Shown: in pieces, positions 5,510 to 46,625 of the stretch
How positions within the stretch are numbered: the first letter of the stretch is position 1
Layout of the letters: each line of letters starts with the position of its first letter
Virus record (IMG/VR): IMGVR_UViG_3300027804_002057
Reading direction: 5' to 3' (one strand)
Origin: a virus
DNA: 64,000 nt
Program-made: the position numbers and the translations under genes
Notes under the pieces: generated by a model
What the model was told of the DNA's origin: nothing
Database searches by the model: none
What the model saw: the letters and a program-made list of their open reading frames with translations, nothing else

Positions 5510-5514
5510 AGTTT

Positions 5515-5733
5515 TTAATTTTCTTCTTCGTTTATTATTTCTATGCAAAGGATATTTTTATCATTAACCATTACCAATCTACCATCTTTTGTTTCAAATT
5601 TAGTAAACTGACCTTGCTTAATTGAATGCGTATCCACCTCATTAAAAGTACGTTTCTCTCCACCAACAAAATGTAGGATTTGAGAAACATATCTTCCTTT
5701 TTTTATTATAGAACTTTTTAAATTAGTTTTCAT
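5515..5733 (-). CDS. Hypothetical protein
   Basis: 72-aa ORF packed between co-oriented neighbours. Confidence 0.6.
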   Translation of the reverse strand: MKTNLKSSIIKKGRYVSQILHFVGGEKRTFNEVDTHSIKQGQFTKFETKDGRLVMVNDKNILCIEIINEEEN

Positions 5734-11565: not shown

Positions 11566-11570
11566 AGGTA

Positions 11571-11602
11571 CAAATATAATACTTTTTTTTTAATTTACCA
11601 AA
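11571..11602 (-). promoter_or_regulatory. Bacteroidota-type primary-sigma promoter (TTTG-N20-TATATTTG)
   Basis: -7 box at 11571-11578, TTTG at 11599-11602, 5 nt before the ATG at 11565. Confidence 0.75.
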
Positions 11603-11657
11603 TATAATTTATGTATATGTATATATAGATATAAATATAAGATTTTAAGTTAAAACA

Positions 11658-11691
11658 ATAAAAAATGGGTAACTTTTTTTAGTTACCCATT
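11658..11691 (-). terminator. Intrinsic terminator downstream of the Gly/Ser/Thr repeat gene
   Basis: AATGGGTAACT/AGTTACCCATT stem followed by a T-run on the minus strand. Confidence 0.75.
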
Positions 11692-11714
11692 AGATTTATT
11701 TTATTTAATTACTA

Positions 11715-14096: not shown

Positions 14097-14170
14097 TTTA
14101 TATTATGTTGCGTATTTTGAGATTTATACACAAGTAAATATAATTAAAAGGTAAAAGAAGAAGATTGTAC

Positions 14171-14641
14171 CTATTTAATATATTGAGTTAATACTTCTTT
14201 TTTGAACTTTACCAATTCAATGTTTTTTATGTTTTTGGTAATATAAGTTCTGTAAGTAGGTATATTTTGATTATATATCCTACTTTGGGCCACAAATTGA
14301 TTGAATATTTTACGTCCATCTTTGTTATCAAGAATTAAAATATCTTCCAATCTTTCGGATTCAGTTATTAAATTTTCAGTAATAGCGGGTTTATAAAGTT
14401 TTTTTAACCACCTAAAAAACTCCTTTGGCTTAACTAAACTAATTTTTAAAGCAGATATAACTTTTGTTGGAGATATTCCTATAACAAAAATGTAAGATGT
14501 TTCCACACCTGCTAAACTCTTTGTTTTACCATCTTTGTAAGTATAACTATTAATTTTGTATATGTTTCTAGGTCTTATCAAATTTTTAGAAACACTTTCT
14601 TCATACTCAATTAATGGTATATACTCTTTTGAAAATGGCAT
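14171..14641 (-). CDS. Hypothetical protein
   Basis: 156-aa ORF, tightly packed. Confidence 0.7.
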   Translation of the reverse strand: MPFSKEYIPLIEYEESVSKNLIRPRNIYKINSYTYKDGKTKSLAGVETSYIFVIGISPTKVISALKISLVKPKEFFRWLKKLYKPAITENLITESERLEDILILDNKDGRKIFNQFVAQSRIYNQNIPTYRTYITKNIKNIELVKFKKEVLTQYIK

Positions 14642-14642
14642 T

Positions 14643-15935
14643 TTATAGTTTATTTAATTTTGGTATTTGAATCTTAGCTTTGTTAAGCTGCGGAACATTA
14701 AATGGAACAACTTTAGGAGTTGCTTTTACATAAGTATCCATAATTTCAGTAAATCTATCATGCATTTTTTCTAATGTAAAATTTTTCAAAGTATTTTCTT
14801 TTAATCCCTGTGATTTAGAAAGGTAAGTATCATACTTTTTATAAACATCATACATTTTATTAGCTGCAGAACTATAATTTACAGTAAACCATTGTGCTTC
14901 TTTCATAATGAATTGGTCAGCTGCGGATTCATCTACTGCTGTCAAACTACCTTCCAATAAAACTGCATGTTCTGCTGGTAGAAAATCTATTTGCCCACTC
15001 CATCCACTTGCTATAAGTGGTTTACCTGTCAAAGTAAACTCAGCCATTGGTCTACCATATCCCTCACCTTTAGCAAATGAAATCATTGCTTTAACTTTTG
15101 GATGATGGTATAAATTACTCATATCACTTTCTTCCATATCACCATGTATCAAATATACAGATGGAGATTTATCACCAAATGATTTTAATACTTCATCAAT
15201 CTTTCTACGAGTTTCCTCTCTATCAATTACACTAAATCCAGCATGAGATGTTTTTAATAAAAGAGCAGGTTGTTTATCTTTTGGTAGGTATTGAAACACT
15301 GTTGCAAATGTTTTAATTACCATTCCAATATCTTTTCTATCTTGTCCCAATGAACCTTTCAACCAATGTCCAACAGTTAGGAAACAAAAATCTTCTTTTA
15401 CGTTTTCCAAAACATCTTTACCATTTCCATTAGAAAATATTTCAGTATCAACACCTTCAAATAGAACTTCGATTGGTCTTTGTATTTTAAACTCACCTAC
15501 AATCTGCCCAGTTGTTTGGTCCTTTTGTTGATATACAGTTCCGCCTAAATTTTGTTTTGTAAAATTAGATGGTACTAAAATCAAATCCATTTTGTTAGAA
15601 CCATCAATAAAATCTTTAGGTGCAATTGTAGTTTCAACTCCAGCAGTAATACCAATGTTATAATTTCCTTTTGGTTCGAATTCATTTGCTACTGAAATTT
15701 GCATGAATACGTCAGGCTTTTCTCCAATCTCTCCAATAACTCTTTCTAACATCCAACGGCCAAATTCATCTTGGTCACTAACTTGGTTTTGTGGTGTGTT
15801 ACCCCAACGAAGTGGAATAATTTTTATATCGTACTTATCCATTTTACGAAGTGATTTCATCAAATCTCTACAATGGTCACCATAACCACTTCTAGTAAAA
15901 ATAGGTCCTTGAAATACTAATGTTGGTTTGCTCAT
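14643..15935 (-). CDS. GT4-like (GT-B) glycosyltransferase
   Basis: TRSGYG, DRKDIG, KGEGYGRPMAE, GKPLIASGWSG. Confidence 0.88.
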   Translation of the reverse strand: MSKPTLVFQGPIFTRSGYGDHCRDLMKSLRKMDKYDIKIIPLRWGNTPQNQVSDQDEFGRWMLERVIGEIGEKPDVFMQISVANEFEPKGNYNIGITAGVETTIAPKDFIDGSNKMDLILVPSNFTKQNLGGTVYQQKDQTTGQIVGEFKIQRPIEVLFEGVDTEIFSNGNGKDVLENVKEDFCFLTVGHWLKGSLGQDRKDIGMVIKTFATVFQYLPKDKQPALLLKTSHAGFSVIDREETRRKIDEVLKSFGDKSPSVYLIHGDMEESDMSNLYHHPKVKAMISFAKGEGYGRPMAEFTLTGKPLIASGWSGQIDFLPAEHAVLLEGSLTAVDESAADQFIMKEAQWFTVNYSSAANKMYDVYKKYDTYLSKSQGLKENTLKNFTLEKMHDRFTEIMDTYVKATPKVVPFNVPQLNKAKIQIPKLNKL

Positions 15936-15945
15936 ATACTATAAC

Positions 15946-17328
15946 TTATTTAACTTTAAATACCTCAAATCTTTGGCGAGGTTTCCAATTTTCAAATGTA
16001 GATTCAATTCCATCCACTAATGTTTGACACATATTTGTATGTGATAAACCAGCTTCATTAATAAAGAATTCTCTACCAATTAAAGCATTTGCTTTTCTTT
16101 CTTCTTTAGGTGTGTTGTACATTTTTTCGATTGCATCCGCAACATCATGTAAATCAACTCTATCATCCCAAATATAAGGAGTTGGAACTGAACCTGCTAA
16201 TGCCAATGCTCTACTCCAAACAGGAATAGCCCAAGAACCAGGTTTTGCTTTTTCTTCCCACTTTCTCCACTCATGCAGAGAACCAATTTTTATATAATCA
16301 TCCGCAACTAATACATTACCCTCAACTTTAAATCCACATTGGTCTTGCAATCCGCCTGTTACGTTTACGATGATTGGAGTTCCTGCCATTACCGATTCTG
16401 CAGTTGCTAATCCAAATCCTTCGTTGTTAGCGATGTTAATTGTTGCATCTACCATATTGTAGATAAGATTTAACTCTTGTTGAGGTCTTCTCTTTTCAGA
16501 AAATTTAATATTAACATCAGGTGCAATTGCTTCAATAACTGCCGGTAAATCCGTACCATTATCATCCACAGGTTGAGTGTGCATTAATAACAAACACTTA
16601 TCTGCTTTTTCTTTACCAATTCTATCACAAAATAATTTATATGCATAGATTACATCAGATGGTTGCTTTCTTCTAATATTGCGATTTGACCAATAAAGAA
16701 TGAAATCATATTTTTTATCACCAACAACATCTTTGTAAAACTCATCAGATACATCAGCTGGTTTGTATATATCAGTATTAATACCATGTGGTACATAACT
16801 TACTTGCCAATCTGCTTTTGGTTTCCAAGTTGGTTTATCAACTCTAGCACCAATTCTTTTAATAATACCATAAGTTTGGCGAGAGATACAACCAATCCAA
16901 TCACAACTTTCATAGAAGTTACGATTATACATTGGGTCTGGCAAATCATCCCAAATTGCGTAGAATAAAAGAGGAACATTTTGTCTGATTTCATGCTCTA
17001 TATCATACAACCATGTCCAATAGCGAGGGTCAGTAAAGTGTAGGATAGCATCAGGTCTTTCTGAATTAATCAGCTGACGTATTAAATCAGCGTTACCATA
17101 TCCATTCCAAGGTAAAATTTTTACATTTGCATCTTGTATTCCATAGTTTTGTCTGATGTCTTCACTAACATCTAAAATCTTTCCAGCTTCTGGATGGTTG
17201 ATTGCAGCTCCTACTTGAAACCAATCGTATTTATGTACTGTCCCTAATACTAATTCTTTGGACATTGTAGCGATACCACTCGCCATTCTTAAATCATCTG
17301 AAAGTAACAATATTTTTTTCTTTGCCAT
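15946..17328 (-). CDS. GT4-like (GT-B) glycosyltransferase
   Basis: VPHGIN, NRNIRRKQ, NEGFGLATAESVMAGTPII...GGL. Confidence 0.9.
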   Translation of the reverse strand: MAKKKILLLSDDLRMASGIATMSKELVLGTVHKYDWFQVGAAINHPEAGKILDVSEDIRQNYGIQDANVKILPWNGYGNADLIRQLINSERPDAILHFTDPRYWTWLYDIEHEIRQNVPLLFYAIWDDLPDPMYNRNFYESCDWIGCISRQTYGIIKRIGARVDKPTWKPKADWQVSYVPHGINTDIYKPADVSDEFYKDVVGDKKYDFILYWSNRNIRRKQPSDVIYAYKLFCDRIGKEKADKCLLLMHTQPVDDNGTDLPAVIEAIAPDVNIKFSEKRRPQQELNLIYNMVDATINIANNEGFGLATAESVMAGTPIIVNVTGGLQDQCGFKVEGNVLVADDYIKIGSLHEWRKWEEKAKPGSWAIPVWSRALALAGSVPTPYIWDDRVDLHDVADAIEKMYNTPKEERKANALIGREFFINEAGLSHTNMCQTLVDGIESTFENWKPRQRFEVFKVK

Positions 17329-19274: not shown

Positions 19275-20246
19275 TTATATTACGTTTAAAATTTGTATTA
19301 ATGTTGATGCTGCTATAATTTCTTTATCAATTGCTACCGCAGATTTAGCAATACTATCACCTAAGATAAGAATTACACCGGATGTATTATCAGCTGCATA
19401 TTCATCTACTTTATCATAAAGAAGTGTGTACAATTCTGAAAATTCTGATGCTCTACTATCAATAATAGCCTGTCTTAGTTTCATATATTTATTTCTCTTA
19501 TCATCATTTGATTTAAGAATATCCAATACTTTTAACTTATAATCATTTTCTAATAGATTTTGTACATCTACTTTCAACTTACCTTTATGAGAATTCAATT
19601 GGCAAGTGTTGATTACTTTACGAATATCAGGATAACTAGCATCAATGATTGGAACTAAATCTTTTACATCAAACTCCACACCTTCAGCTTTCAAAATTTT
19701 ACTCATTTGAATAGCCACATCTTTTTTAGTTGGTGGGATAATTTGGAAAGATTGACATCTACTTTGAATTGGTTCAATTACTTTCTCCACATAGTTACAA
19801 GTCAAAATGAATCTACAATGTTTACTAAATGTTTCCATTAAGTTTCTTAGGATAGCCTGAGCGTTTTGTGACATGTAATCAAACTCATCCATTATAATAA
19901 TCTTAAATGGCTTGAATCCCATTGATGATGCAAAGTTCTTTACTTTGTTACGAACTGTATCTACGTTGTTTTCATCCGATGCGTTAATAATGATGTAATC
20001 ACAATCTAATGAATTAACAATCAATTTTGCTAATGTGGTTTTACCCGTACCCGCTCTACCATAAAGTAACAGATGCGGTACATCACCACTTTCTAAATAA
20101 GTTTCTACTTTTGATTTTAAGTGCTCATTACCTACATAATCTTCTAACTTATTAGGTCTATATTTTTCAACCCACAATGAGTGGTTGTTTTCTTCTTGCT
20201 GATATTCGAACATAATTTTTTTATTTTCCAGTTGAACCGAATCCAC
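19275..20246 (-). CDS. Clamp loader large subunit (T4 gp44 / RFC-like AAA+)
   Basis: WVEKYRP, GRAGTGKT, INASDE, MDEFD, FILTCN, SRC; true start may be MFEYQ. Confidence 0.95.
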   Translation of the reverse strand: MDSVQLENKKIMFEYQQEENNHSLWVEKYRPNKLEDYVGNEHLKSKVETYLESGDVPHLLLYGRAGTGKTTLAKLIVNSLDCDYIIINASDENNVDTVRNKVKNFASSMGFKPFKIIIMDEFDYMSQNAQAILRNLMETFSKHCRFILTCNYVEKVIEPIQSRCQSFQIIPPTKKDVAIQMSKILKAEGVEFDVKDLVPIIDASYPDIRKVINTCQLNSHKGKLKVDVQNLLENDYKLKVLDILKSNDDKRNKYMKLRQAIIDSRASEFSELYTLLYDKVDEYAADNTSGVILILGDSIAKSAVAIDKEIIAASTLIQILNVI

Positions 20247-21016: not shown

Positions 21017-22228
21017 TTATCTTCCTACTTCTGATAGGTATTTTGCTTTCATTTCTTCCCAACTAATTCCGATAGCATCTATGTAGAATAAGTGTTCAGG
21101 TTTAATTCTTCCTTCATCATGTAGTTTTGTATATCTACTGATTGCGTGTTTCTTCCACCATTTGTTGATGTATTCAGTACCTTGCTTAAATTTATCTTTA
21201 AGGATTAATTGGTCTTCGGTAATTTTATCACAAAGGAAATCAGTACCATTTTCATACATCATAGCCATATACACACCTCTCTTAAATCCGTGATGATATT
21301 CAGTTGCTTTGATACCACACTCCTTAAAGATTTGTCCTAATATCTTTTGTTTGATACCACTAACAGGTCCGTTAGCTTCATATCCCATATTAGCACCATT
21401 ACGAGCTCTCTCATCTGAAATGTTATCTTTGTACCATTCAGCACGATTTTCTTTTAACCATTGATGCCAAGGGTCATAATACTTATCATCCGGCTTAATA
21501 CTAATTTTACCAGCTGATTCTCCTAATGTTTTAAATAAAGGGATACCATTGTATTGAGAATGGATACCATATAGAGATGTTGTACCTACTGCTATAAGAA
21601 CGTTTTCATATTTTTTCTTCCAATACTCTCTAACTTCAGGCACCGTAGTCATCATAGCTATTAACTTACCACCTAAGAAGTTATATCCTAAAGGTTGAGT
21701 ACATACAATAGTTGAAGCAATAGTTGTGTTGTTTAACTTACCCTTCTGAAACTTATCTTCTTTTGACCAACCAATAAAGTTATCTCTAACACCTAATGCG
21801 GTTACATCGGATGCCAATGAAATTTGTCCTAATAATTTTCCACTTGTCCTATCCTTTACATTAATCTTTACATTACGACCAGGGTTTGCTGTAAAATCCA
21901 TTGTGTGAATCATACGTCTTACTGCTGCCCATTTAGTAGATTCCTTAGGGTCTTCCACAATCTCAACGTAAGGGTCTAACGATTCAATTTCTTTTATCGT
22001 TAGCTCCTTATCATTGATATTTGTTGGTTTCCATTGAGAGTCATAATACGATGCTATTTGGGCTTTAGCCTGAATCATTGACGGTTCTTGCAACTCCACC
22101 CACTTTTTGTATAGTGTTTGTTCTTGCACAGACATCGTCATAAGATAGTCCATATTTTCTTTTAACTTTTGTTTCTCAACATCAAAGTCAAAGATAGGTT
22201 TTTGTGGTTCAGTTTCCCAAAAGCTCAT
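21017..22228 (-). CDS. DUF4338 / Druantia DruA-like protein
   Basis: PGRNVK..V.D, LG.ISL.S....L..RD.FIGW, PLGYNFLGGKL.A, TTSLYG..SQYN pattern. Confidence 0.75.
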   Translation of the reverse strand: MSFWETEPQKPIFDFDVEKQKLKENMDYLMTMSVQEQTLYKKWVELQEPSMIQAKAQIASYYDSQWKPTNINDKELTIKEIESLDPYVEIVEDPKESTKWAAVRRMIHTMDFTANPGRNVKINVKDRTSGKLLGQISLASDVTALGVRDNFIGWSKEDKFQKGKLNNTTIASTIVCTQPLGYNFLGGKLIAMMTTVPEVREYWKKKYENVLIAVGTTSLYGIHSQYNGIPLFKTLGESAGKISIKPDDKYYDPWHQWLKENRAEWYKDNISDERARNGANMGYEANGPVSGIKQKILGQIFKECGIKATEYHHGFKRGVYMAMMYENGTDFLCDKITEDQLILKDKFKQGTEYINKWWKKHAISRYTKLHDEGRIKPEHLFYIDAIGISWEEMKAKYLSEVGR

Positions 22229-22233
22229 ATTAA

Positions 22234-22929
22234 TTATTTAATTTCTACTAAGTAATAGTTTGATGTGTAATCTCCATCAGTAAATGATACATGTGATAAT
22301 CCTTTAGATGAGATTTTCAATGAAGATGATTTAGAACCTTTGTTAGCGGTTAAGATTGCTTTCAAATATTTTGCTGAGAATGCAATTGGTTCAACATCTT
22401 CTTTTGCTGTTGTTTCCACAGCGATTGAAATTCGATTTGAGTTGATTGAAGAATAACCCAAAATGATTTCAGCTTTTTTATCTTTTACAGTAAATGTAAA
22501 AGTATCTGCATCAGCCAATGCACCTTTTGATTTAATAAACTTATTTACAAAGTCATCATTCAAAGTAACTTCTGCATCAAAAGCAGGTAATGCTTTCAAA
22601 TCAGGTACTGCAGGAATCACCGATGGTGCTGCTAACATATATTGTACCTTAGTTCCTTTATCAGAGAACTTAACTGCTCCAGTTGTTTCTTCAACTGAAA
22701 TTGCTTCATCCAATACACTCAACAATCCTTTTAATTGAGATGTAGTGTAAATACCAAACTCACCATTAGGGAAATCAGTTTCAGCAACTGTAACATCACC
22801 TAACAATGTTTTGTCATCGGAAATCATTCTTACTGATAATTCTTTATCAGAAGATTTAATCATAACGGATTCAATCTCACCACCAAGGTTATAACGATTG
22901 ATAAAACCATCAAATTTGCTTTTGTTCAT
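22234..22929 (-). CDS. Sliding clamp (T4 gp45 / PCNA-like)
   Basis: 231 aa, two beta-rich repeats, FSAKYLKAIL, directly downstream of PolB and near the clamp loader. Confidence 0.75.
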   Translation of the reverse strand: MNKSKFDGFINRYNLGGEIESVMIKSSDKELSVRMISDDKTLLGDVTVAETDFPNGEFGIYTTSQLKGLLSVLDEAISVEETTGAVKFSDKGTKVQYMLAAPSVIPAVPDLKALPAFDAEVTLNDDFVNKFIKSKGALADADTFTFTVKDKKAEIILGYSSINSNRISIAVETTAKEDVEPIAFSAKYLKAILTANKGSKSSSLKISSKGLSHVSFTDGDYTSNYYLVEIK

Positions 22930-22995
22930 AATTGAAATTTTATATTTTAAAAGTTTATATTACACAAATATACGAAAAATACTTGAAACTACCAA

Positions 22996-25518
22996 CTAAA
23001 ATGAAAAGAATTTTTCAGCAGTTTTAGCGGCAGATAGTACCTCACCCCATCCCAATGCTCCATAAAAGTCCTCTAATTTCTTCAATAACTCTCTTTCAAA
23101 GATTTTATCATAATCAATGTATTGAGTTACCAATTCCATAATTTCAGGTGCATCATTATATCCCTTAAATCCAAGTCCTTCCAATCCATATGGATTTTGT
23201 TTTAGATACACCCATTTAATCTTGTCACCATCTCTCATTGGTTCGTATTTAGATGGGCATTTAAAGTGTACCAACAATTGATTGTGAGCAATTGCTGCTT
23301 TAACGTGAGCCGGAGTACCAGATGCAAATTGGAACATTGCCGTTTGGTCTTTTTTCTTTGGAAGATATTTAGATAATTCTTTTACAGCCGAGTTCTTAGC
23401 AATTGAAGTTACATCCATAGTTACCAATGCTTTTTTGAAAGCCTGTATCTTATCGGTTAGTATTTCTTCATTATCACCTTTTAGAATTTGAATAAGAACC
23501 TCACCCATAAATTTACGGAACTCAGCTGGATATGATGAACGAACTACGTCCAACCCTTTAACATCCAATCTATCCATTGGAATACCATTCTCAGCCACAA
23601 TCCATTGAGCGTATCTTTTCTTAGCAATCCAAATACCACTTCGAGATACGAACTCTTTCTTAATTTGGAATCTATGTTTTTCTTTTGCTACATTGAATAT
23701 TTTTTCAGCCAACACATCATAAAAATTATTTAAGAAGTCTTGCGTTTCACCAGCAATACTATCTACTAATTTGGCAATTTCCGAATCTTCTTTTGTTTTC
23801 CAATCAGGGAATCTATGGTCTAAGATAGGTACTGCTGAAAAGAATACTGAATCCGTATCAATGTAAATGTTGTAATCACCACCTTTAGTTCCTAACTCTT
23901 TGTTGTACTTAATGTTAGCCATATCCGCAGTTGATTTAATTACGGTCTGACCTGTTAGTGTTACAGCCTCAGCGTTATCCACATCATAGAATCGGAATGC
24001 CGGCAAACCTAACACACCATAAAGAGAGTTCAATAAGATTTTTTGTACCAACTGTCTTTTCTTATAGAATGCGTACTTCTCTTTGTCACCAGCTTCACCA
24101 AACTTCTTCTCCAACTTACGGAACTCAACACGCTGATTAAACCATAAATCCAAAATATCAGGGATACAGCCGGGCTTATCGGTTTTATATAGAACACCAT
24201 TTGATGCTACCGAACATTTAGCTTCTTCAAATAGTTTCTTTAAGTTTTCTTTTGTGATTTGTCTATCACCAATTGTGTACATATCCACTTCACCCTTCAT
24301 AAACTTTTGTGCATCCCAATCGTTAATCTTACCAATCTTAGTTTCGGGACTGATGTTTACAGTCATAATGATTGATGGATATAGTGAAGTTAAGTCCAAG
24401 TCATAAATCCAATCGTATTTACCAACAATAGGTGCCTTTACATAAGCTCCAATGAATTTTTCTTCATTGTTCTCTCTAATGGCTTCCATACGTTCTTGTC
24501 TATCCGCAGGTTTGTTTGGTGCTACAATGTTCTTACGTTTAAGGTAAGTAAGCATTGCACCTTCTAAATATTTAGATGAATAAACAAAATCTTCATAAGG
24601 AACATGTCCAGCGTGACATATACCTCTACACAAATCAATGAATTGTAATTTTCTATCTAATGAAACTACCAGGTCAACGTCAATCAAGTTATACTCAATA
24701 AACTTTTCAATATCATCTTTGAATAATTGGTCCAAATTACCTTTGTATTCAATCTTACCTCTACCCAATTCTTTCATAGCGATACTATCCAAACGATAGT
24801 TATCCAATTCTGAATATGTGTATGTACGATATAATTGTAAGTAGTCCAAATAAGATACACCTGCCATAAAGAATCTCTTACGATATGGTGACCAAAAACA
24901 CTCACCAATTGGAGATAATCTATTAGCGTGCTTAGCACCTAATAATCTTTTAATACGATTGTACAAATACGGAGTATCGAAATAATCAATGTTCCAACCA
25001 GTTACAATTGTTGGATTAATCATTTCGTATAAATCTAAATACTTTAGAATCATATCCCTTTCATCTCTAAAAGGAATTACAGTTCTATTACCGGTATTAC
25101 TTTCTTTCATCTTACCGGCTTTATCCATAATCAATACCCAAAAATGGTCAGTAGCTGAATCATGCAAACCTATCGCTGTTAATTCATTCTCTGATTTTTC
25201 AACATCAGGTAATCCACTTTCCATCTCAACCTCAATATCGTATGTAAGTGTAATGTGGCCTTCAGATGGTATATCCGAATCGGTATATGTATCAACTAAT
25301 ACTCTTGTTGTTTCAGGTACATCGGATTCAAATAAATCCGGGTCATCTTTTTTAAATTTGAATATCTTAGTAAGCTTATCACCATAAAGAGAAGTGTATT
25401 CACCTCTATCTGCTTTTTCGTAAGCATATCTACTATAAGGGAAAGTGCGGTATCCCAATTTATCATCCCAAATATGCACTAAATTCTTTTCTCTTTGATA
25501 ATAACAATTCTGATACAT
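22996..25518 (-). CDS. Family B DNA polymerase (T4 gp43-like)
   Basis: Exo DIE and GWNIDYFD; DLTSLYPSII, KILLNSLYG, YIDTDS, KKRY; C-terminal KFFSF. Confidence 0.98.
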   Translation of the reverse strand: MYQNCYYQREKNLVHIWDDKLGYRTFPYSRYAYEKADRGEYTSLYGDKLTKIFKFKKDDPDLFESDVPETTRVLVDTYTDSDIPSEGHITLTYDIEVEMESGLPDVEKSENELTAIGLHDSATDHFWVLIMDKAGKMKESNTGNRTVIPFRDERDMILKYLDLYEMINPTIVTGWNIDYFDTPYLYNRIKRLLGAKHANRLSPIGECFWSPYRKRFFMAGVSYLDYLQLYRTYTYSELDNYRLDSIAMKELGRGKIEYKGNLDQLFKDDIEKFIEYNLIDVDLVVSLDRKLQFIDLCRGICHAGHVPYEDFVYSSKYLEGAMLTYLKRKNIVAPNKPADRQERMEAIRENNEEKFIGAYVKAPIVGKYDWIYDLDLTSLYPSIIMTVNISPETKIGKINDWDAQKFMKGEVDMYTIGDRQITKENLKKLFEEAKCSVASNGVLYKTDKPGCIPDILDLWFNQRVEFRKLEKKFGEAGDKEKYAFYKKRQLVQKILLNSLYGVLGLPAFRFYDVDNAEAVTLTGQTVIKSTADMANIKYNKELGTKGGDYNIYIDTDSVFFSAVPILDHRFPDWKTKEDSEIAKLVDSIAGETQDFLNNFYDVLAEKIFNVAKEKHRFQIKKEFVSRSGIWIAKKRYAQWIVAENGIPMDRLDVKGLDVVRSSYPAEFRKFMGEVLIQILKGDNEEILTDKIQAFKKALVTMDVTSIAKNSAVKELSKYLPKKKDQTAMFQFASGTPAHVKAAIAHNQLLVHFKCPSKYEPMRDGDKIKWVYLKQNPYGLEGLGFKGYNDAPEIMELVTQYIDYDKIFERELLKKLEDFYGALGWGEVLSAAKTAEKFFSF

Positions 25519-26664
25519 CTATTCACTTAATTTTTTATGTAATACTGAAAACATTTTTGTATCGTTTTCTGATAATTCGTTTGCTCTTTTTAATGCTGCC
25601 AATTCCCTCTCACTTCTATAAGTATCGTCATCTAATATCTTATCAAGTAATTCAAACAATTCTTTTTGGTTATTAAAAAACATACCATTCGGTTCTATTT
25701 CTCTATAACAATCTGAATTATGAAATATCATTGGAGTTCCATTCATCATACAATCCGTTGCAGACACACTCCATCCATAATTTGTTTGTAATGGTTGTAT
25801 TCCAACTTTACATAATTGTAATTTTTCATAGTATGCTTGCTTTGATGCCTCTTTTGTTGTATCAAACCAAGGTAACTTTTTATCCTTATGTTGATATTGT
25901 GGCACCCATACTTTAAAATCTTGTCTATGTTTTTTGTAAGCTTCCATATAACCAACAAACTTATTATAGTTTTTATATCCAGCCGTTCTATGATTGAATA
26001 CAATTATGTTATGCTTATTTGGATTTGGTTGTGATATAATTTTATCTTTCATCACTCCCAAATTCCAAACACATAGTTTTTCATTCAATTTGTTTAAAAC
26101 ATCATCACTAAACCATTGCTTTGCTTCTTCAATAACTTTGTTCTTTTGGTCTTGTGTATTGATAAAGCAAGTATCCATTTGTAGTACACCCAATATTTCG
26201 TTGGGTAACCAAAGTTCTTTTGCTTTACCAGGTCTATTATCTACACCATTACAATAACTCATCTCCCACCAATGACAATAACCAATTATTTTTGTATCAA
26301 CAGTTTTCTTATATCTACCCACCACATTCCAATCAGGCAGATGCGAATAGATAATATCATAATCTGTATTCTTTAACACACCAACTAATTCTTCTGATGG
26401 GAAACATCTCTGATTCATCATATCGCCAGGTATAGGGACTTCAATTTGCTTAACGTTATCTAACATATTAAGCTTTGCACATACATTACCTTTTGGCATT
26501 ACTACATACCAAAAATATTCACCATAATTCTTTAAGGCATTAACGTGATTGAAAAGGACATCCACAAAGGAGTCCTTTTCAATATTTGAGTAGTTAGTAA
26601 TATTTGGTATCACTAATACTTTTCTTGCCGTATGGTAATTAACAGTTGTTTCCCAAAATGACAT
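25519..26664 (-). CDS. GT-B glycosyltransferase-like protein, candidate DNA-base modifier
   Basis: IIVFNHR...YK, GWSVSATDCMMNGTP; stop codon abuts the PolB start. Confidence 0.65.
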   Translation of the reverse strand: MSFWETTVNYHTARKVLVIPNITNYSNIEKDSFVDVLFNHVNALKNYGEYFWYVVMPKGNVCAKLNMLDNVKQIEVPIPGDMMNQRCFPSEELVGVLKNTDYDIIYSHLPDWNVVGRYKKTVDTKIIGYCHWWEMSYCNGVDNRPGKAKELWLPNEILGVLQMDTCFINTQDQKNKVIEEAKQWFSDDVLNKLNEKLCVWNLGVMKDKIISQPNPNKHNIIVFNHRTAGYKNYNKFVGYMEAYKKHRQDFKVWVPQYQHKDKKLPWFDTTKEASKQAYYEKLQLCKVGIQPLQTNYGWSVSATDCMMNGTPMIFHNSDCYREIEPNGMFFNNQKELFELLDKILDDDTYRSERELAALKRANELSENDTKMFSVLHKKLSE

Positions 26665-26674
26665 TTAATTTAAT

Positions 26675-28366
26675 TTATTTGTTAGTGAACAACATACCCG
26701 CCACCATTCTAATTTCATCAGGTGTCAATGCAGTTGTTCTATTATCTACATCTAATATATCTAATAAACTTTGTGTTTTACTATACTTTACAAGTTTACA
26801 TACATACTTAACATCATCAGCATCACATCCTGCTGATTTGTTTCGGTTTACTTCATTTAGTATTAATTGACCATTGTACACTTCAGTAGGTCCACCATAA
26901 GTGTATGCTATAATGTGGTCAGCTCTCCATTCTGATTGTGGATAGTCACTAAGTTTCTTACCGGTCTTTCTACATAATCCATTTTGGATAGTATATAATT
27001 CATCTCTTTGTTGCTGAGAGAATTCTCTTGGATTTTTGTTTGCTTTTGAGAATCCCCAGCTTTCAAAGTCAAAACCATCTAATAGTGGCATCAGAGTAAA
27101 CTCCAAGTCATCTATACGAGCACCACCATTGAATACAGAGCGGTATCCATATTCCTCACCTTTGTTTACTTTCTTAGATGTGGTTTTTTTAACCATCCTA
27201 CCATCAGAATCAATAGATTCATATCTTTGGTGCGGATTATGTTTGAAACTCTTTTTACCAGCAAAGAGTGTAATTCTATCTCTAAGTGTTTCTAAGAATT
27301 TTGCTGAATTGAAGTTCTTATCCAATACTTGCCAATTTTGGTTAATCAATCCTATTTCATATATTAGGCAGAATACCTTTTTAATGTTACCTTTCTTCCA
27401 ATTTTGTTTTGCACCAATTTTACCAGTTCTTACAACTCTATCTGTCATAGATAGAATTATCTCAAGATTTTTAATGAATTGGATACCTTCTTTTATTGTA
27501 AGGAATTCATTAAATTCTTCACTCCTATACATTTCCTCTAACGGACCTGCCGTAGAATCTAAACCGGTACATTCGTTACTTGTAAACCCACCTTGCTTCA
27601 TATACAACATACACAATGAAACAATCTCATCGGTTTCTCTTTTTGTTGTTTTCAACCCAATATGGGCCAACTTTTGGCCTACTTTTTCGGAAAGGAATTT
27701 GAAGGCTTCACTACTATCTACTGCTCCATATTTTCTACATAAGTCTGAAACATATGAATTGATTGCGTTTCTCTTATCCGCTGCACTCATATCGTGCAAA
27801 TCGTTTAGTGTTAGGAATATATCTTCCGCCTCATCATCAGATATATTTGAATGTATTGTTAAATCGAAGTATATACTTGTTTGGTATATTTCTTCCAATT
27901 CAGAATGTTTATCGGTAATTTGTTTCCAGCTCATATCACTCAAGTCATATTCGGTTTCAATTCCAGTTTCAGAATTTACCAATGTGATGATTAAGTTTTT
28001 TGGAGTTCTAATTTTGTTTGTGAAGAACGCCAGAATAGTTCTGGAACGATGCCCACCATCCAATATTTCGTAGAATCCATCTTGAGTTAATCTAAGATGA
28101 ATTTTTTGGAATGGTTTAAGTTTTAATACATCTCCTATAAGATGTTGTTGCCATATTTCACCAGTTCCCCACGCCACATCTACATAGTGGTAAGGTCTTT
28201 GGAATTTTGGAGATGGGTTGATTTTACCCTGATGATAATAATCAAGGAATTTTCTTAGAGTCCAATATTGGTTTTGGATGTTTGAGTGCTTTTCTAAATA
28301 CACTCTTTTGAATTCGTTAATGGTTGCGAATCTGATTGCACCATCAAGTAATGGTTGATTACTCAT
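26675..28366 (-). CDS. DUF262 (ParB-like) + HNH protein, GmrSD/SspE-like architecture
   Basis: PKFQRPY, EILDGGHR, IFLTLN; C-terminal C..TG...ADHIIAYTYGGPT...NGQL....NRNKS. Confidence 0.82.
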   Translation of the reverse strand: MSNQPLLDGAIRFATINEFKRVYLEKHSNIQNQYWTLRKFLDYYHQGKINPSPKFQRPYHYVDVAWGTGEIWQQHLIGDVLKLKPFQKIHLRLTQDGFYEILDGGHRSRTILAFFTNKIRTPKNLIITLVNSETGIETEYDLSDMSWKQITDKHSELEEIYQTSIYFDLTIHSNISDDEAEDIFLTLNDLHDMSAADKRNAINSYVSDLCRKYGAVDSSEAFKFLSEKVGQKLAHIGLKTTKRETDEIVSLCMLYMKQGGFTSNECTGLDSTAGPLEEMYRSEEFNEFLTIKEGIQFIKNLEIILSMTDRVVRTGKIGAKQNWKKGNIKKVFCLIYEIGLINQNWQVLDKNFNSAKFLETLRDRITLFAGKKSFKHNPHQRYESIDSDGRMVKKTTSKKVNKGEEYGYRSVFNGGARIDDLEFTLMPLLDGFDFESWGFSKANKNPREFSQQQRDELYTIQNGLCRKTGKKLSDYPQSEWRADHIIAYTYGGPTEVYNGQLILNEVNRNKSAGCDADDVKYVCKLVKYSKTQSLLDILDVDNRTTALTPDEIRMVAGMLFTNK

Positions 28367-28481
28367 AAATAATTTGGTTTACCTATACACCATTTCAAGG
28401 TTTTAGTTGGTTGCTGCTACCTTTTTGTTTTAATTGTAAAGTATTTGCATCAGCATTACAAATACCTTTTGTTTGTAAATA

Positions 28482-28513
28482 CAAATATACGAAGATTTTT
28501 TGATATGGCCAAA
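28482..28513 (-). promoter_or_regulatory. Bacteroidota-type promoter for the DUF262-HNH/GT/PolB unit
   Basis: TTTG-N20-TATATTTG. Confidence 0.75.
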
Positions 28514-28532
28514 CTTTTTTAGTACTTTTTTC

Positions 28533-28557
28533 TAACTTATTGATTATCAATGAGTTA
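28533..28557. repeat. 25-bp imperfect palindrome TAACTTATTGATTATCAATGAGTTA
   Basis: 12-bp arms with one mismatch (G-T) around a central T. Confidence 0.8.
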
Positions 28558-28561
28558 CATA

Positions 28562-29362
28562 TTACCAAAAATTGGCCGCACCTTCTGGTGCTTCGTATGT
28601 AGTTAGGTGATGTACTATTTCTGTATTAAAAGATGCCGTATCTTTTGGGTAAGGTTTGATTTCATGCTTTAATCGTTTCATCAAATCCTTCTTTTCTTTT
28701 TTATCTTGCGCAAGTATCTGAACATATCTATGCTTTGGTGGTTCTTCCCTTCTCCAAAACTCTTTATATCCTTGCTTACCAATTTCTAATTTCAAATGGT
28801 CTAAGTTACCACTACCCCACATTGAGAATACTGTCCTACTATGAATCCATTGATAAGGGTCTTTGTGTAATGATATACCCCAGTTTGGCATCAATGCAAT
28901 ATCCGTAGATAATCCCTGATAAATCCAATTGGTGGCTTGATAGATTCCACCCAAATGCGATTGTCCATTATCAGCGTATGAAAGTAATACCTTTATATTT
29001 TTATCGTGCTCTTTTAACCATTTGAAAGATTGTCCTAATGCATATGATTCAATATTAGAACCATAACCATCATCACAATATAATCGTGTCAATTCTAAAA
29101 TGTTATCTTTGGTTAAACCTTCACAAATAGAAGTTGATGCTTTTGCTCCAACTGGGAAACCATAGATTAAACAACCTATAAGTTTATCACCATCAAAGGT
29201 ATTTGCATCTTCTGATTTGTAATATATTCCAATTGCATATCTACAAGCTGTCCAAGCATGAGTATAATGTTTCTTTACAATCATATCTTTAGCAATACTC
29301 TTTGCTATTGGTGCTACATACACTTTGGATACATCACAATAATTTTTACCTTCTACTTTCAT
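28562..29362 (-). CDS. Mom-like (GNAT-fold) DNA adenine-modification protein, paralog 1
   Basis: KHY, ILELTRL, NIESY, LLSYAD..Q.H.G.IYQATNWIYQG, KHRY as in Mu Mom relatives. Confidence 0.82.
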   Translation of the reverse strand: MKVEGKNYCDVSKVYVAPIAKSIAKDMIVKKHYTHAWTACRYAIGIYYKSEDANTFDGDKLIGCLIYGFPVGAKASTSICEGLTKDNILELTRLYCDDGYGSNIESYALGQSFKWLKEHDKNIKVLLSYADNGQSHLGGIYQATNWIYQGLSTDIALMPNWGISLHKDPYQWIHSRTVFSMWGSGNLDHLKLEIGKQGYKEFWRREEPPKHRYVQILAQDKKEKKDLMKRLKHEIKPYPKDTASFNTEIVHHLTTYEAPEGAANFW

Positions 29363-29365
29363 ATT

Positions 29366-29620
29366 TTACCAGTACTTTTTACCATCTTTTTTAGCCTGCT
29401 TAGCTTTCTCTAATACCGATAATGATTTTGCCAACTTAGCTTCCTTTTGTTGTTTCTTCATCATCTTATCATAGCCGGCTGGGAATTTGTTTGTTACTTC
29501 TATCGGCCCATTCGGAAATTTATCTAAATCATATTTCCATGTAGATTCAGTACCATCATCATCTATATAAACATGCTGAAACTTACGTGGTTTTTCCGGT
29601 GGTGTTTTAGATACTGCCAT
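29366..29620 (-). CDS. Hypothetical basic protein ending KKYW
   Basis: 84-aa ORF with its own promoter at 29635-29666. Confidence 0.65.
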   Translation of the reverse strand: MAVSKTPPEKPRKFQHVYIDDDGTESTWKYDLDKFPNGPIEVTNKFPAGYDKMMKKQQKEAKLAKSLSVLEKAKQAKKDGKKYW

Positions 29621-29634
29621 AACATAATTTTATA

Positions 29635-29666
29635 CAAATATACGAAATTATTTTGAATCTACCAAA
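29635..29666 (-). promoter_or_regulatory. Bacteroidota-type promoter
   Basis: TTTG-N20-TATATTTG overlapping the 3' end of Mom paralog 2. Confidence 0.72.
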
Positions 29667-30421
29667 TCTATCGGGTCCATTCTATGAACCTCATCAATAA
29701 TATCTAATTCCACCTTTGGATAGGGGAATACCTCATGTTTAAGCGATTTTAAGAGTGCTTTACGCTCCTTCTTATCTTTTGTAAGGATATACACATATCG
29801 GTGCTTACGGGGTTCTCTTTTAATCCAGAATGGGCTTGTAACCATTGTCTGAATTATCTTTGGGTCATTCGTTCCGTACTTCACATAGGATGTTCGAGAA
29901 TGATGCCATTCATCATCTTCACTCCATTTGAAAGACCAACTATCTGACCATCTGATTTTATTACCTTGATATATCCAATTGGTAGCTTGATATACCGTTC
30001 CTAAGTGCCCAGCGTTTGGGTCTGAATAAGATATAAGTGCTTTGATACGAGGTACATTAGTTCTTAACCATTCGAAAGTTTGTCCAACGAACCAACTTTC
30101 AATGTTACTACCATATCCATCGAATACGAATAATCTTGTCAATTCTAATACACCATCTCTAGGAAGTAATTCGGAAATTGATGCTCCGGCATTTCTACCA
30201 ACCGGGTCACCATAACAGGCTACACCAACTAATTGCTCATTCACTCCACTAAAGAATGAATGCTCATCATCGGAAAGATAAAATAAGCCTATGGCAAAGG
30301 ATACCTTTGTCCATATCCCACTGTAATGGTTATTGACAATAATATCCTTTGCAATATTCTTATTGATTTCTCTTATTGAGAATTTGGATGTATCACAATA
30401 TTGTTTACCTTCTACTTTCAT
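29648..30421 (-). CDS. Mom-like (GNAT-fold) DNA adenine-modification protein, paralog 2
   Basis: NHYS, VLELTRL, NIESW, LISYSD...GH.G.VYQATNWIYQG, KHRYVY. Confidence 0.82.
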   Translation of the reverse strand: MKVEGKQYCDTSKFSIREINKNIAKDIIVNNHYSGIWTKVSFAIGLFYLSDDEHSFFSGVNEQLVGVACYGDPVGRNAGASISELLPRDGVLELTRLFVFDGYGSNIESWFVGQTFEWLRTNVPRIKALISYSDPNAGHLGTVYQATNWIYQGNKIRWSDSWSFKWSEDDEWHHSRTSYVKYGTNDPKIIQTMVTSPFWIKREPRKHRYVYILTKDKKERKALLKSLKHEVFPYPKVELDIIDEVHRMDPIDLVDSK

Positions 30422-30621
30422 AGACTACCAGACCAAAATTCGTTTAAATGTGCCCAAGTTTTACGTTGAACAATTTTAATCACATTGGCCGGCGAAACTT
30501 TATTGTTACGGGCAATCACCTTTACATTTCGGTGTCCCATATTCCATAATCTTCTGATGTTTAGAACTTGCTCATCTGTCAGTTTAGCGGCAGGATGAGT
30601 TTGCCCTCTTAAAATAGCCAT
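30418..30621 (-). CDS. Small HTH protein resembling the C-terminal DNA-binding domain of phage HNH endonucleases
   Basis: GQTHPAAKLTDEQVLNIR...IAR..KVS...V.KIV.RKTW. Confidence 0.65.
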   Translation of the reverse strand: MAILRGQTHPAAKLTDEQVLNIRRLWNMGHRNVKVIARNNKVSPANVIKIVQRKTWAHLNEFWSGSL

Positions 30622-46615: not shown

Positions 46616-46625
46616 ATCAATAAAT

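What the first reader, a model, noticed from the sequence alone, without database searches (positions are those of the whole stretch)
21017..30621. Candidate clamp-tethered DNA hypermodification system: unrelated enzymes share terminal FW/FF peptides
Seen: two non-homologous genes flanking the clamp-PolB pair, the DUF4338 protein (22228) and the GT-B protein (26664), begin with the same hexapeptide MSFWET. The Ser codons differ (AGC vs TCA), which favours protein-level selection over recent DNA duplication. Neighbours carry similar aromatic pairs: PolB ends AEKFFSF, Mom-1 ends GAANFW, the 84-aa ORF ends GKKYW, the HTH ORF ends NEFWSGSL, and Mom-2 has a loop DEHSFFSG. Known: PolB enzymes dock on gp45/PCNA-type clamps through short terminal peptides with hydrophobic/aromatic residues, and Mom- and GT-B-type enzymes modify phage DNA bases. 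Inference: this phage recruits several base-modifying enzymes to the fork through a shared clamp-binding peptide, giving multi-step, replication-coupled modification, with the DUF262-HNH nuclease in the same block. I do not know of this arrangement being described.
Basis: partly seen in the sequence, partly recalled or inferred. Interest (0 to 1): 0.85.

Follow-up and report, generated by a model that had tools for sequence, protein, structure and literature searches.

The report
Shared terminal FW tips on phage DNA-modifying enzymes
Three unrelated DNA-modification-type enzymes of a marine T4-like phage carry the same conserved, floppy Phe-Trp tip at a chain end. It looks like a docking tag for a shared partner, most likely the sliding clamp encoded between them, but binding could not be tested here.

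Summary
MSFWET starts both the GT-B glycosyltransferase and the DUF4338/DruA-like protein.

**What is conserved**
- The tip M-x-FW-[D/E] is kept in 167 of 176 distinct GT sequences and in 162 of 162 DruA-like sequences (55-100% identity). The flanks and the codons vary.
- Mom-1 ends in FW (40) or YW (2) in 42 of 42 sequences, after a divergent linker.
- PolB always ends [K/Q]FF[S/A/G]F, which resembles the T4 gp43 clamp-binding tail.
- AlphaFold2 leaves both N-terminal tips disordered.
- Distant phages show the same pattern, with FFD or WFE tips on DruA-like proteins and FFG or FWE tails on Mom-like proteins. In one of them the PolB tail (KFFDF) and the DruA-like tip (SFFDI) nearly match.

**What is not conserved**
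- The 84-aa ORF tail, the HTH ORF tail and the Mom-2 C-terminus are not conserved.
- The DUF262-HNH gene is variable cargo in a hot spot, not part of the core.

**New here**
- The DruA-like core is closest in fold to phage Mu Mom (Z 10.1).

**Verdict**
A selected terminal docking motif is well supported (about 0.85). I class it as a new variant of clamp-tethered enzyme recruitment.

The parts
26647..26664 (-). N-terminal tip MSFWET of the GT-B glycosyltransferase (codons 1-6)
   Evidence: M-x(0-2)-FW-[D/E] is kept in 167 of 176 distinct homologues. Residues 1-4 have pLDDT below 50, and residues 1-13 are coil before strand 1.
25519..26664 (-). GT-B (GT4-like) glycosyltransferase, 381 aa. Its stop codon directly abuts the PolB ATG.
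   Evidence: Pfam Glycos_transf_1 and Glyco_transf_4 match below the gathering cut-off. The AF2 model has pLDDT 86.6. Foldseek matches MshA, PimA and BshA at E 1e-12 to 1e-10; T4 AGT 1xv5 ranks 19.
22211..22228 (-). N-terminal tip MSFWET of the DruA/DUF4338-like protein (codons 1-6)
   Evidence: FW-[D/E] is kept in 162 of 162 distinct homologues. Residues 1-6 have pLDDT below 50, while residues 11-20 average 91.
21017..22228 (-). DruA/DUF4338-family protein with a Mom-like GNAT core, 403 aa
   Evidence: Pfam PF14236 at 66 bits against a cut-off of 27. In the all-PDB structural search the top hit is phage Mu Mom 8bv8_B (Z 10.1, rmsd 3.7 over 169 residues), followed by GNATs at Z about 8.
22234..22929 (-). 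gp45-type sliding clamp, 231 aa; the proposed receptor
   Evidence: phrog_223, DNA polymerase processivity factor, E 1.3e-15. It lies between PolB and the DruA-like gene in 57 loci. A central proline-rich stretch and the C-terminal YYLVE are invariant. No sequence match to solved clamps.
22996..25518 (-). Family B DNA polymerase, 840 aa. Its C-terminal tail KFFSF (codons at 22999-23013) is the presumed clamp-binding motif.
   Evidence: Pfam DNA_pol_B and phrog_262. The tail is [K/Q]FF[S/A/G]F in 38 of 38 orthologues. It resembles the T4 gp43 tail EKASLDFLFG (PMC6212786). The Microcystis phage Mel-JY01 PolB ends SKFFNFK.
28562..29362 (-). Mom-1, a Mom-family GNAT, 266 aa. Its C-terminal FW (codons at 28565-28570) follows a divergent linker.
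   Evidence: Pfam PF25680 at 153 bits. The last two residues are FW in 40 and YW in 2 of 42 orthologues. FW is kept even where the gene has moved elsewhere in the genome. The alignment shows an 8-10 residue extension relative to Mom-2.
29648..30421 (-). Mom-2, a paralogue, 257 aa. It has no terminal motif but a conserved internal loop ..H-x-FF..
   Evidence: Pfam PF25680 at 148 bits. The C-terminus is not conserved. The loop FF is conserved within Mom-2.
26675..28366 (-). GmrSD_N (DUF262) plus HNH nuclease, 563 aa. It is variable cargo in the slot between Mom-1 and GT, not core.
   Evidence: Pfam GmrSD_N at 34.7 bits against a cut-off of 33.2, and phrog_1035 on residues 444-522. It is present in 12 of the 80 loci searched. 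Elsewhere the slot holds other GmrSD_N proteins, a HATPase_c_3 protein or proteins with no family match.
29366..29620 (-). 84-aa Lys-rich ORF ending KKYW. The tail is only partly conserved.
   Evidence: No family match. Orthologues end KKYW, KGYW, ANKG or EGRR.
30418..30621 (-). 67-aa HTH-like ORF overlapping the Mom-2 start. Its aromatic tail is not a conserved terminal motif.
   Evidence: phrog_20467, HNH-endonuclease-associated region, E 4e-7. Orthologue ends differ.
19275..20246 (-). gp44/RFC-like clamp loader ATPase. The likely true start is the internal Met (MFEYQ..).
   Evidence: phrog_168 at E 3e-79. In some lineages the orthologue N-termini read MSFFAN, MAFFEQ or MGFFEE.

Best explanation
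MSFWET is this phage's version of a conserved terminal tag, F-W usually followed by Asp or Glu.

**Where the tag sits**
- It is at the extreme N-terminus of a GT4-type GT-B glycosyltransferase.
- It is at the extreme N-terminus of a DUF4338/DruA-family protein whose core has the fold of phage Mu Mom.
- It is at the extreme C-terminus of the Mom-family enzyme Mom-1.

**What it most likely does**
The tag is a short, disordered docking peptide under protein-level selection. Its most likely receptor is the hydrophobic, basic-rimmed partner pocket of the gp45-type sliding clamp encoded between these genes. That pocket is expected to hold the polymerase tail KFFSF. Docked to clamps on newly made duplex DNA, the enzymes would scan and modify DNA close to replication.

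**What is shown**
- The motif, its conservation, its disorder and the enzyme families.
- The Mom-like fold of the DruA-like protein.
- The conserved gene neighbourhood.

**What is inferred**
- That the receptor is the clamp.
- That the glycosyltransferase acts on DNA.
- What the chemical modification is. By analogy with Mu Mom, Mom-1 and Mom-2 would transfer an aminoacyl group from charged tRNA to a base in double-stranded DNA.
For: **Conservation**
- GT tip in 167 of 176 sequences, DruA-like tip in 162 of 162, Mom-1 FW or YW in 42 of 42, PolB FFxF in 38 of 38.
- The residue after Met varies or is absent, and the flanks diverge.
- Selection is at protein level: codons vary (TTT/TTC, GAA/GAT/GAC), the GT tip is encoded by 38 different nucleotide strings, and the upstream DNA differs.

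**Disorder**
- pLDDT is below 50 for GT residues 1-4 and DruA-like residues 1-6, in otherwise confident models.

**Specificity**
- Only these two families carry the N-terminal tip among 2430 ORFs of 80 loci and in three near-complete genomes.
- Only PolB and Mom-1 carry a C-terminal aromatic pair conserved across all the genomes compared.

**Gene linkage**
- The usual order is Mom-1, variable slot, GT, PolB, clamp, DruA-like. One lineage has Mom-1, DruA-like, GT, PolB, clamp.

**Distant phages**
- Many DruA-like proteins start with FFD, WFE or QWF tips.
- Mom-like proteins end ENPFFG or EHNFWE.
- In L117 the PolB tail SKFFDF and the DruA-like tip SFFDI nearly match.

**Same-genome concordance**
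- The residue after Met matches between GT and DruA-like in 11 of 33 tip combinations, against 4.3 expected by shuffling. This is not corrected for relatedness.

**Literature**
- T4 clamp-binding motifs sit at a C-terminus (gp43), an N-terminus (RNase H) or an internal loop (ligase).
- The RB69 clamp pocket is hydrophobic with two basic residues that meet acidic groups of the motif (PMC3012046, PMC6212786, PMC7892883).
- Mu Mom acts post-replicatively on double-stranded DNA using Gly-tRNA (PMC13219725).

**Enzyme assignments**
- The DruA-like core's top structural match is Mu Mom.
- Both Mom paralogues keep the Arg and Ser that align with the essential residues of Mu Mom.
Against: - No binding evidence of any kind was obtained.
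- The FW tips are not the polymerase motif. They have two aromatic residues at the very chain end, against FFxF in PolB. In T4, known clamp ligands all share one motif, LDFLF.
- In GT, order resumes a few residues after the tip. Invariant Tyr10 lies in the coil just before strand 1, which starts at residue 14. The leash is therefore short.
- The clamp has no sequence match to solved clamps, so pocket residues could not be mapped.
- Lineages whose clamp loader lacks an aromatic N-terminus still keep the FW tips.
- The T4 precedent for a clamp-bound DNA glucosyltransferase was not reproduced in a 2025 preprint (10.64898/2025.12.06.692756).
- No evidence shows that virion DNA is modified or that the glycosyltransferase acts on DNA.
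Confidence: 0.5

Rival explanations
1. The FW tips are docking peptides for a shared partner other than the clamp. One possibility is that they hold the three enzymes together as a modification complex. Others are that they bind the polymerase, the single-strand-binding protein, RNA polymerase, or a factor tied to the aminoacyl-tRNA supply used by Mom-type enzymes.
For: - The evidence shows a conserved disordered terminal motif shared by co-located enzymes, but nothing identifies the receptor.
- The tips differ from the PolB tail motif.
- The residue after Met tends to match between GT and DruA-like in the same genome. That fits any common receptor.
Against: - Partner-borne short aromatic or acidic terminal peptides are the hallmark of clamp hubs (PMC3012046, PMC6212786).
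- The genes flank the clamp.
- In L117 the DruA-like tip nearly copies the PolB tail.
- No other candidate hub is consistently linked to these genes.
Confidence: 0.2
2. The terminal aromatic pairs are degradation tags. Exposed aromatic termini would be recognised by Lon-type or Clp-type proteases, limiting the lifetime of DNA modifiers that could be toxic.
For: - Degrons occur at either chain end, are short and disordered, and are often aromatic (general knowledge of Lon and ClpXP substrates; not tested here).
- The tips are at the very termini and are disordered.
- Mom-type enzymes are tightly controlled in phage Mu (PMC6483171).
Against: - The near-invariant acidic residue after FW, and the similarity to polymerase tails, are not expected of a degron.
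- The polymerase, which must be stable, carries a related tail.
- A degron would not need to be the same on three enzymes, or to be kept for so long across lineages.
Confidence: 0.1
3. The tips act within each enzyme or on DNA. They could serve as an aromatic wedge that intercalates during base flipping, or as an autoinhibitory plug of the active site.
For: - All three carriers are expected to act on bases in duplex DNA. T4 AGT, solved bound to DNA, is among the GT model's fold matches, and Mom acts on dsDNA (PMC13219725). Base flipping by such enzymes is from general knowledge.
- In GT the tip lies only a few residues from the folded domain.
Against: - Three unrelated folds would have had to place the same dipeptide at opposite chain ends for a catalytic role.
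- The models give no packed position for the tips.
- Mom-2, a close paralogue of Mom-1 with the catalytic residues, lacks the tail.
Confidence: 0.1
4. The shared hexapeptide is a chance match or a remnant of a recent local DNA duplication, with no function.
For: The two starts share an 11-nt string.
Against: - About 0.0014 pairs are expected by chance.
- The Ser codons differ.
- The motif persists across 55-100% identical orthologues with many synonymous and flanking changes.
Confidence: 0.01

Closest known systems
Sliding-clamp-binding motifs of T4-type phages: gp43 C-terminal tail, RNase H N-terminal peptide, DNA ligase internal loop, gp33 and gp55 tails (PMC6212786, PMC3012046, PMC7892883)
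   Same: - A short aromatic or acidic peptide sits on a flexible terminus or loop.
- It occurs at either chain end.
- Several different enzymes in one phage carry it.
- The clamp is encoded alongside.
- The PolB tail here (..AEKFFSF; ..EKASQFFGF in a relative) resembles T4 EKASLDFLFG.
   Different: - The tips here are just F-W(-D/E) at the extreme end and are not copies of the polymerase motif.
- The carriers are base-modifying-type enzymes, not replication or transcription factors.
- Binding is untested.
T4 alpha-glucosyltransferase binding to gp45, proposed in 2004 as cited and re-tested in bioRxiv 10.64898/2025.12.06.692756
   Same: The idea is the same: a phage DNA glycosyltransferase rides the clamp and modifies DNA as it is replicated. 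T4 AGT is also a GT-B enzyme and appears among the fold matches.
   Different: - No motif was defined for T4 AGT.
- The interaction was not reproduced in vitro or in vivo in the 2025 preprint.
- Here a conserved terminal motif is shared by three enzymes.
Phage Mu Mom, a tRNA-dependent GNAT that makes N6-carbamoylmethyl-adenine (PMC13219725, PDB 8bv8)
   Same: - Mom-1 and Mom-2 are Pfam Mom members and keep the aligned Arg and Ser.
- The DruA-like core is closest in fold to Mu Mom.
- Mu Mom acts post-replicatively on double-stranded DNA.
   Different: - Mu has a single Mom and no phage clamp.
- That paper's main text does not contain the words clamp, replisome or C-terminal.
- Here there are two Mom paralogues, a Mom-fold DUF4338 protein and a glycosyltransferase.
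DruA of type I Druantia defence (Pfam PF14236)
   Same: The sequence family is the same (66 bits). DruA-like genes in marine T4-like cyanophages were noted before (Phold preprint 10.1101/2025.08.05.668817).
   Different: - No DruB-E partners are present.
- The gene sits in a phage replisome operon directly after the clamp.
- It carries the N-terminal FW tip.
DNMT1 PIP box binding to PCNA in eukaryotes
   Same: It is replication-coupled DNA modification through a clamp-binding peptide near the enzyme's N-terminus.
   Different: It is a eukaryotic methyltransferase with a canonical Qxx[L/I/M]xx[F/Y][F/Y] motif. It is one enzyme, not a set.

Membership tests
T4-type sliding-clamp-binding motif (PIP-like) | A short hydrophobic or aromatic peptide on a flexible terminus or loop of the partner protein | tested here: met
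   The tips are disordered in AF2 models. The aromatic pair is invariant while the flanks vary.
T4-type sliding-clamp-binding motif (PIP-like) | Sequence likeness to the cognate polymerase tail | tested here: inconclusive
   Only an F-[F/W]-[D/E/S] core is shared with KFFSF. In distant phage L117 the match is close: SFFDI against KFFDF.
T4-type sliding-clamp-binding motif (PIP-like) | Physical binding in the clamp's partner pocket | not testable with these tools
The clamp has no sequence match to solved clamps for mapping the pocket.
Mom family (PF25680) | Profile match above the curated cut-off | tested here: met
   Mom-1 scores 153 bits and Mom-2 148 bits against a cut-off of 27.1.
Mom family (PF25680) | The Arg and Ser essential in Mu Mom (R111, S124) | tested here: met
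   Invariant R93 and S106 (Mom-1 numbering) align with an Arg of 8bv8 and with an Ala that I take to be the S124A substitution. The residue numbering of the crystal chain is inferred.
DruA / DUF4338 (PF14236) | Profile match above the curated cut-off | tested here: met
   66.1 bits against a cut-off of 27.
Type I Druantia defence system | DruA linked to DruB-E, including the large DruE helicase | tested here: not met
   The neighbours are the clamp, PolB, dUTPase and clamp loader. The same holds in 57 related loci.
GT-B glycosyltransferase (GT4-like) | Two-Rossmann-domain GT-B fold | tested here: met
   The model has pLDDT 86.6. Foldseek matches MshA, PimA, BshA and PglA at E about 1e-12 to 1e-10.
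GT-B glycosyltransferase (GT4-like) | Pfam GT1 or GT4 profile above the gathering score | tested here: not met
   20.9 bits against 26.4, and 17.9 bits against 28.5.
Phage DNA glycosyltransferase | Transfers a sugar to a DNA base or base adduct | not testable with these tools
   Only context supports this: the gene abuts PolB and is linked to the Mom genes. T4 AGT appears among many GT-B fold matches.
GmrSD-type type IV restriction enzyme | N-terminal DUF262 domain plus a C-terminal nuclease domain | tested here: inconclusive
   GmrSD_N scores 34.7 bits against a cut-off of 33.2. The C-terminal part matches an HNH or endonuclease VII PHROG, and no DUF1524 profile was listed.

The most novel reading that the evidence does not exclude
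A phage clamp acts as a tool-belt for a multi-enzyme DNA hypermodification line. Two or three Mom-fold, aminoacyl-tRNA-dependent transferases and a GT4 glycosyltransferase plug into the polymerase pocket through a minimal terminal F-W-acid tag that works from either chain end. The base adduct would then be built and glycosylated on freshly replicated duplex DNA. The tag would be a new, orientation-independent class of clamp-binding motif, and DUF4338/DruA would be a Mom-type DNA modifier.
Probability: 0.35. Interest if true: 0.8.

Novelty: new variant of a known kind. Interest (0 to 1): 0.62.

Why it matters
If the tips bind the clamp, this abundant marine phage group would give a clear, sequence-defined case of replication-coupled DNA hypermodification. 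That idea is currently disputed for T4.

It would also define a minimal clamp-binding tag usable from either terminus. That would help find clamp clients in the many T4-like phages whose partners are unknown.

Independently of the receptor, two results stand.
- DUF4338/DruA has a Mom-like fold. That gives a testable function for the unexplained DruA component of Druantia defence and for the DruA-like genes of cyanophages and pelagiphages.
- Mom-1, Mom-2, the DruA-like protein and GT form a conserved module that probably makes an undescribed DNA modification in ocean viruses.

Tried and rejected
No verdict.
- **Megablast of the region against phage records:** no match.
- **tblastn of GT against phage records:** no match.
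- **Whole genome for the window:** none is held.
- **Search for a gp55-type late sigma factor** in five related contigs, to read a second known clamp-binding tail: nothing found. The 152-aa FW-tailed protein of G002 is not similar to the Mosig phage gp55.
- **Profile-profile comparison of DruA-like and Mom alignments:** not significant, probability 1.3%. The relationship rests on fold only. Foldseek alone gave only weak acetyltransferase hits.
- **Clamp profile against PDB sequences:** no hit at E up to 1, so pocket residues could not be mapped.
- **Aromatic C-terminal tails on other proteins:** in genome G002 four more proteins end in an aromatic pair. These are endonuclease I and proteins of 72, 120 and 152 aa. 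Only endonuclease I and the 72-aa protein have orthologues with aromatic ends in other genomes, and those ends are not in register. I did not count them as members.
- **DNA- or RNA-level explanation for the shared start:** rejected on codon and upstream variability.
- **DUF262-HNH as a core member of the module:** rejected.


Full report
**What the window is.** All called genes lie on the minus strand of a low-GC (about 33%) T4-like myophage fragment.

In the direction of transcription, the region of the finding reads:
- thioredoxin
- a 67-aa HTH-like ORF
- Mom-2
- an 84-aa ORF
- Mom-1
- a GmrSD_N(DUF262)-HNH protein
- a GT-B protein
- PolB
- a gp45-type clamp
- a DruA/DUF4338 protein
- a 126-aa ORF
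- dUTPase
- the gp44/RFC-like clamp loader
- a 103-aa ORF
- the small clamp-loader subunit

These assignments come from Pfam and PHROGs. The closest cultured relative by PolB is Microcystis phage Mel-JY01, at 52% identity. Mel-JY01 has PolB, a hypothetical gene where the window has its clamp, and the clamp loader in a row, with no GT, Mom or DruA-like gene in the 20 kb inspected around PolB. The DruA-like protein is about 30% identical to proteins of Pelagibacter phages Mosig and HTVC008M. Hundreds of near relatives occur in marine metagenomes.

**Checking the observation.** Every quoted peptide is present.
- Both MSFWET starts are real. No longer frame from an upstream start codon is open.
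- The Ser codons are AGC and TCA.
- About 0.0014 pairs of window proteins would share residues 2-6 by chance.

**Conservation.** I fetched 80 related viral loci, called their ORFs and assigned orthologues by BLAST. I also used the homologue lists. Counting distinct sequences:
- GT: 176 sequences, 55-96% identical. 167 start M-x(0-2)-FW-[D/E]. The rest have YW-D (3), FW-G (2), FW-N (2), FF-G (1) or no tip (1).
- DruA-like: 162 of 162 start M-x(0-2)-FW-[D/E].
- Mom-1: 40 of 42 end in FW and 2 end in YW.
- PolB: 38 of 38 end [K/Q]FF[S/A/G]F.

The residue after Met is Q, N, S, K, T, E, I, A or absent. The next 6-10 residues differ between sublineages: TTVNYH, SIDYNN or GQLSKE in GT, and TEPQKP or TGEETNT in the DruA-like protein. 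The last 10-12 residues before the FW of Mom-1 are divergent and vary in length. Codons vary (TTT/TTC, GAA/GAT/GAC). The GT tip is encoded by 38 different nucleotide strings, and the upstream DNA differs. Selection therefore acts on the protein.

The other listed instances fare as follows.
- Mom-2 has no conserved C-terminus but keeps an internal ..H-x-FF.. loop.
- The KKYW tail of the 84-aa ORF is kept in some relatives and lost in others.
- The HTH ORF tail is not kept.

**Specificity.** Among 2430 ORFs of at least 60 aa in the 80 loci, only the GT and DruA-like families have the N-terminal tip. The same holds in three near-complete related genomes that I fetched whole. In those genomes only PolB and Mom-1 carry a C-terminal aromatic pair conserved across all of them. 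One genome has further candidates: a T7-type endonuclease I ending SFF, and small proteins ending KFF, DFW and SWW. Their conservation is loose or untested.

**Structure.**
- The GT model (pLDDT 86.6) is a GT-B fold. Residues 1-13 are coil before the first strand, and residues 1-4 have pLDDT below 50.
- Its nearest solved structures are retaining GT4 enzymes (MshA, PimA, BshA). T4 alpha-glucosyltransferase and a phage HY126 glycosyltransferase appear further down the list.
- The DruA-like model (pLDDT 91.3) leaves exactly MSFWET below pLDDT 50. The conserved F-D-F at residues 13-15 is in a confident region (mean pLDDT 91 for residues 11-20), so it is probably packed.
- An all-against-all structural search of 48,161 PDB representatives puts the phage Mu Mom crystal structure first (8bv8_B, Z 10.1, rmsd 3.7 Å over 169 residues). 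Ordinary GNATs follow at Z about 8.
- Sequence profiles do not detect this relationship, so it rests on fold only.
- Both Mom paralogues align to Mu Mom and keep the Arg and Ser that line up with its essential residues (PMC13219725).

**Gene context.** The core order is (HTH), (Mom-2), Mom-1, a variable slot, GT, PolB, clamp, DruA-like, then the clamp loader further downstream. In one sublineage the DruA-like gene sits between Mom-1 and GT. In another, Mom-1 and Mom-2 lie elsewhere in the genome, yet Mom-1 still ends TFW. The slot between Mom-1 and GT is hypervariable. It holds the DUF262-HNH gene in 12 of the 80 loci. Elsewhere it holds other GmrSD_N proteins, a HATPase_c_3 protein or proteins with no Pfam match. 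That nuclease is therefore accessory cargo, as is typical of conflict hot spots, and not part of the conserved module.

**Beyond the clade.** A library-wide search gave 1006 DruA-like representatives. Many phage members at 35-48% identity begin with two to seven residues followed by FFD, WFE, QWF or YWE. Four contigs were informative.
- L117: PolB ends SKFFDFNGG, and the DruA-like protein, two genes downstream, starts ..GSFFDIDE.
- L124: a Mom protein ends ENPFFG, and the DruA-like protein starts ..SNWFE.
- L121: a Mom-like protein (phrog_1384) ends EHNFWE, and the DruA-like protein starts ..SKFFD.
- L122: the Mom protein lacks such a tail.

The habit of putting an aromatic pair plus an acid at the end of Mom-like and DruA-like proteins is thus older than this clade. 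In at least one genome the tip tracks the polymerase tail.

Within the clade, the variable residue after Met matches between GT and the DruA-like protein of the same genome more often than in shuffles: 11 of 33 combinations against 4.3 expected. This is not corrected for shared ancestry, so it is only a hint of a common constraint.

**How it most likely works.** In T4-type phages the clamp presents one hydrophobic patch per subunit. That patch binds short motifs of the polymerase (C-terminal EKASLDFLFG), RNase H (an N-terminal peptide), ligase (an internal loop), gp33 and gp55. In RB69 two basic residues beside the pocket meet acidic groups of the motif (PMC6212786, PMC3012046, PMC7892883). 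The PolB tail here clearly belongs to that class; compare EKASQFFGF in a relative with the T4 tail.

A disordered F-W-acid tip fits what such a pocket accepts. N-terminal placement has a precedent. Mu Mom works post-replicatively on duplex DNA (PMC13219725), which is where clamps sit. I therefore read the tips as clamp-docking tags that keep Mom-1, the Mom-fold DruA-like protein and the glycosyltransferase on new DNA.

This step is inferred. The tips are also not copies of the PolB motif, which tempers the inference.

My odds are:
- about 0.85 that this is a selected terminal docking or recognition motif;
- about 0.5 that the receptor is the clamp.

The rivals are another shared partner, a protease degron, or an intramolecular or DNA-wedge role.

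**Known or new.** Clamp tool-belts and PIP-like peptides are textbook. Clamp tethering of a phage DNA glucosyltransferase was proposed for T4, but a 2025 preprint found no interaction in vitro or in vivo. DruA-like genes in marine T4-like phages have been noted without a function.

Four things appear to be new:
- a minimal FW tag shared from either chain end by three unrelated modification-type enzymes;
- the conservation of that tag across an abundant marine phage group;
- the Mom-like fold of DUF4338/DruA;
- the conserved Mom-1, Mom-2, DruA-like and GT module beside the replisome genes.

I class it as a new variant of a known kind. It is of moderate to high interest, pending a binding test.

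Noticed in passing
window 46665-47037 (-): A full-length tmRNA gene sits inside the phage fragment. Both ARAGORN and Rfam find it (RF00023, 79.1 bits against a gathering score of 47, E 1e-30). It partly overlaps the mechanical ORF at 46217-46756.
   Followed up: partly
window 1-17328: A large low-GC block contains several glycosyltransferase-like genes. The ORFs at 14643-15935 and 15946-17328 match phrog_2170. A 793-aa ORF lies at 11715-14096. This block is separate from the polymerase-linked GT and carries no FW tips.
   Followed up: no
window 26675-28366; loci L004-L082, between Mom-1 and GT: The slot between Mom-1 and GT is hypervariable. It holds the DUF262-HNH gene, other GmrSD_N proteins, a HATPase_c_3 protein, or 390-590 aa proteins with no Pfam match. 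It looks like a conflict-gene hot spot.
   Followed up: partly
L040:3836-7847 and L040:11124-13497: In one relative PolB is split into ORFs of 1007 and 286 aa, which suggests an inserted element. The second piece still ends KFFSF. The same contig has two tandem DruA-like paralogues, and both start M-x-FWD.
   Followed up: no
L085:1493-1912 (genome G002): A T7-type endonuclease I (PF05367) has a short tail ending TQSFF. Its orthologue in G003 ends ENFFDFSK. It may be a further clamp client, comparable to archaeal Hjc binding PCNA (own knowledge).
   Followed up: partly
L111:536-1660 (Pelagibacter phage HTVC008M): A second DruA-like gene lies immediately after the PolB gene of HTVC008M, whose PolB ends LEDFF. 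The link between DruA-like genes and the replisome therefore extends to cultured pelagiphages.
   Followed up: no
window 19275-20246 and orthologues in L040, L046, L053 and L072: The clamp-loader ATPase starts MSFFAN, MAFFEQ or MGFFEE in some lineages. It probably starts MFEYQ in the window. These starts resemble the M-x-FW-[D/E] tips. Other lineages lack the extension.
   Followed up: partly
window 25516-25521: The GT stop codon directly abuts the PolB ATG with no spacer. The HTH ORF overlaps the Mom-2 start by 4 nt. Both arrangements suggest translational coupling.
   Followed up: no
L125 (Microcystis phage Mel-JY01): The closest cultured relative by PolB has no Mom, GT or DruA-like gene in the 20 kb inspected around its PolB, and earlier protein searches of phage records did not list it for GT or DruA-like. 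It keeps a PolB tail ending SKFFNFK. It could serve as a natural comparison strain for the module.
   Followed up: partly
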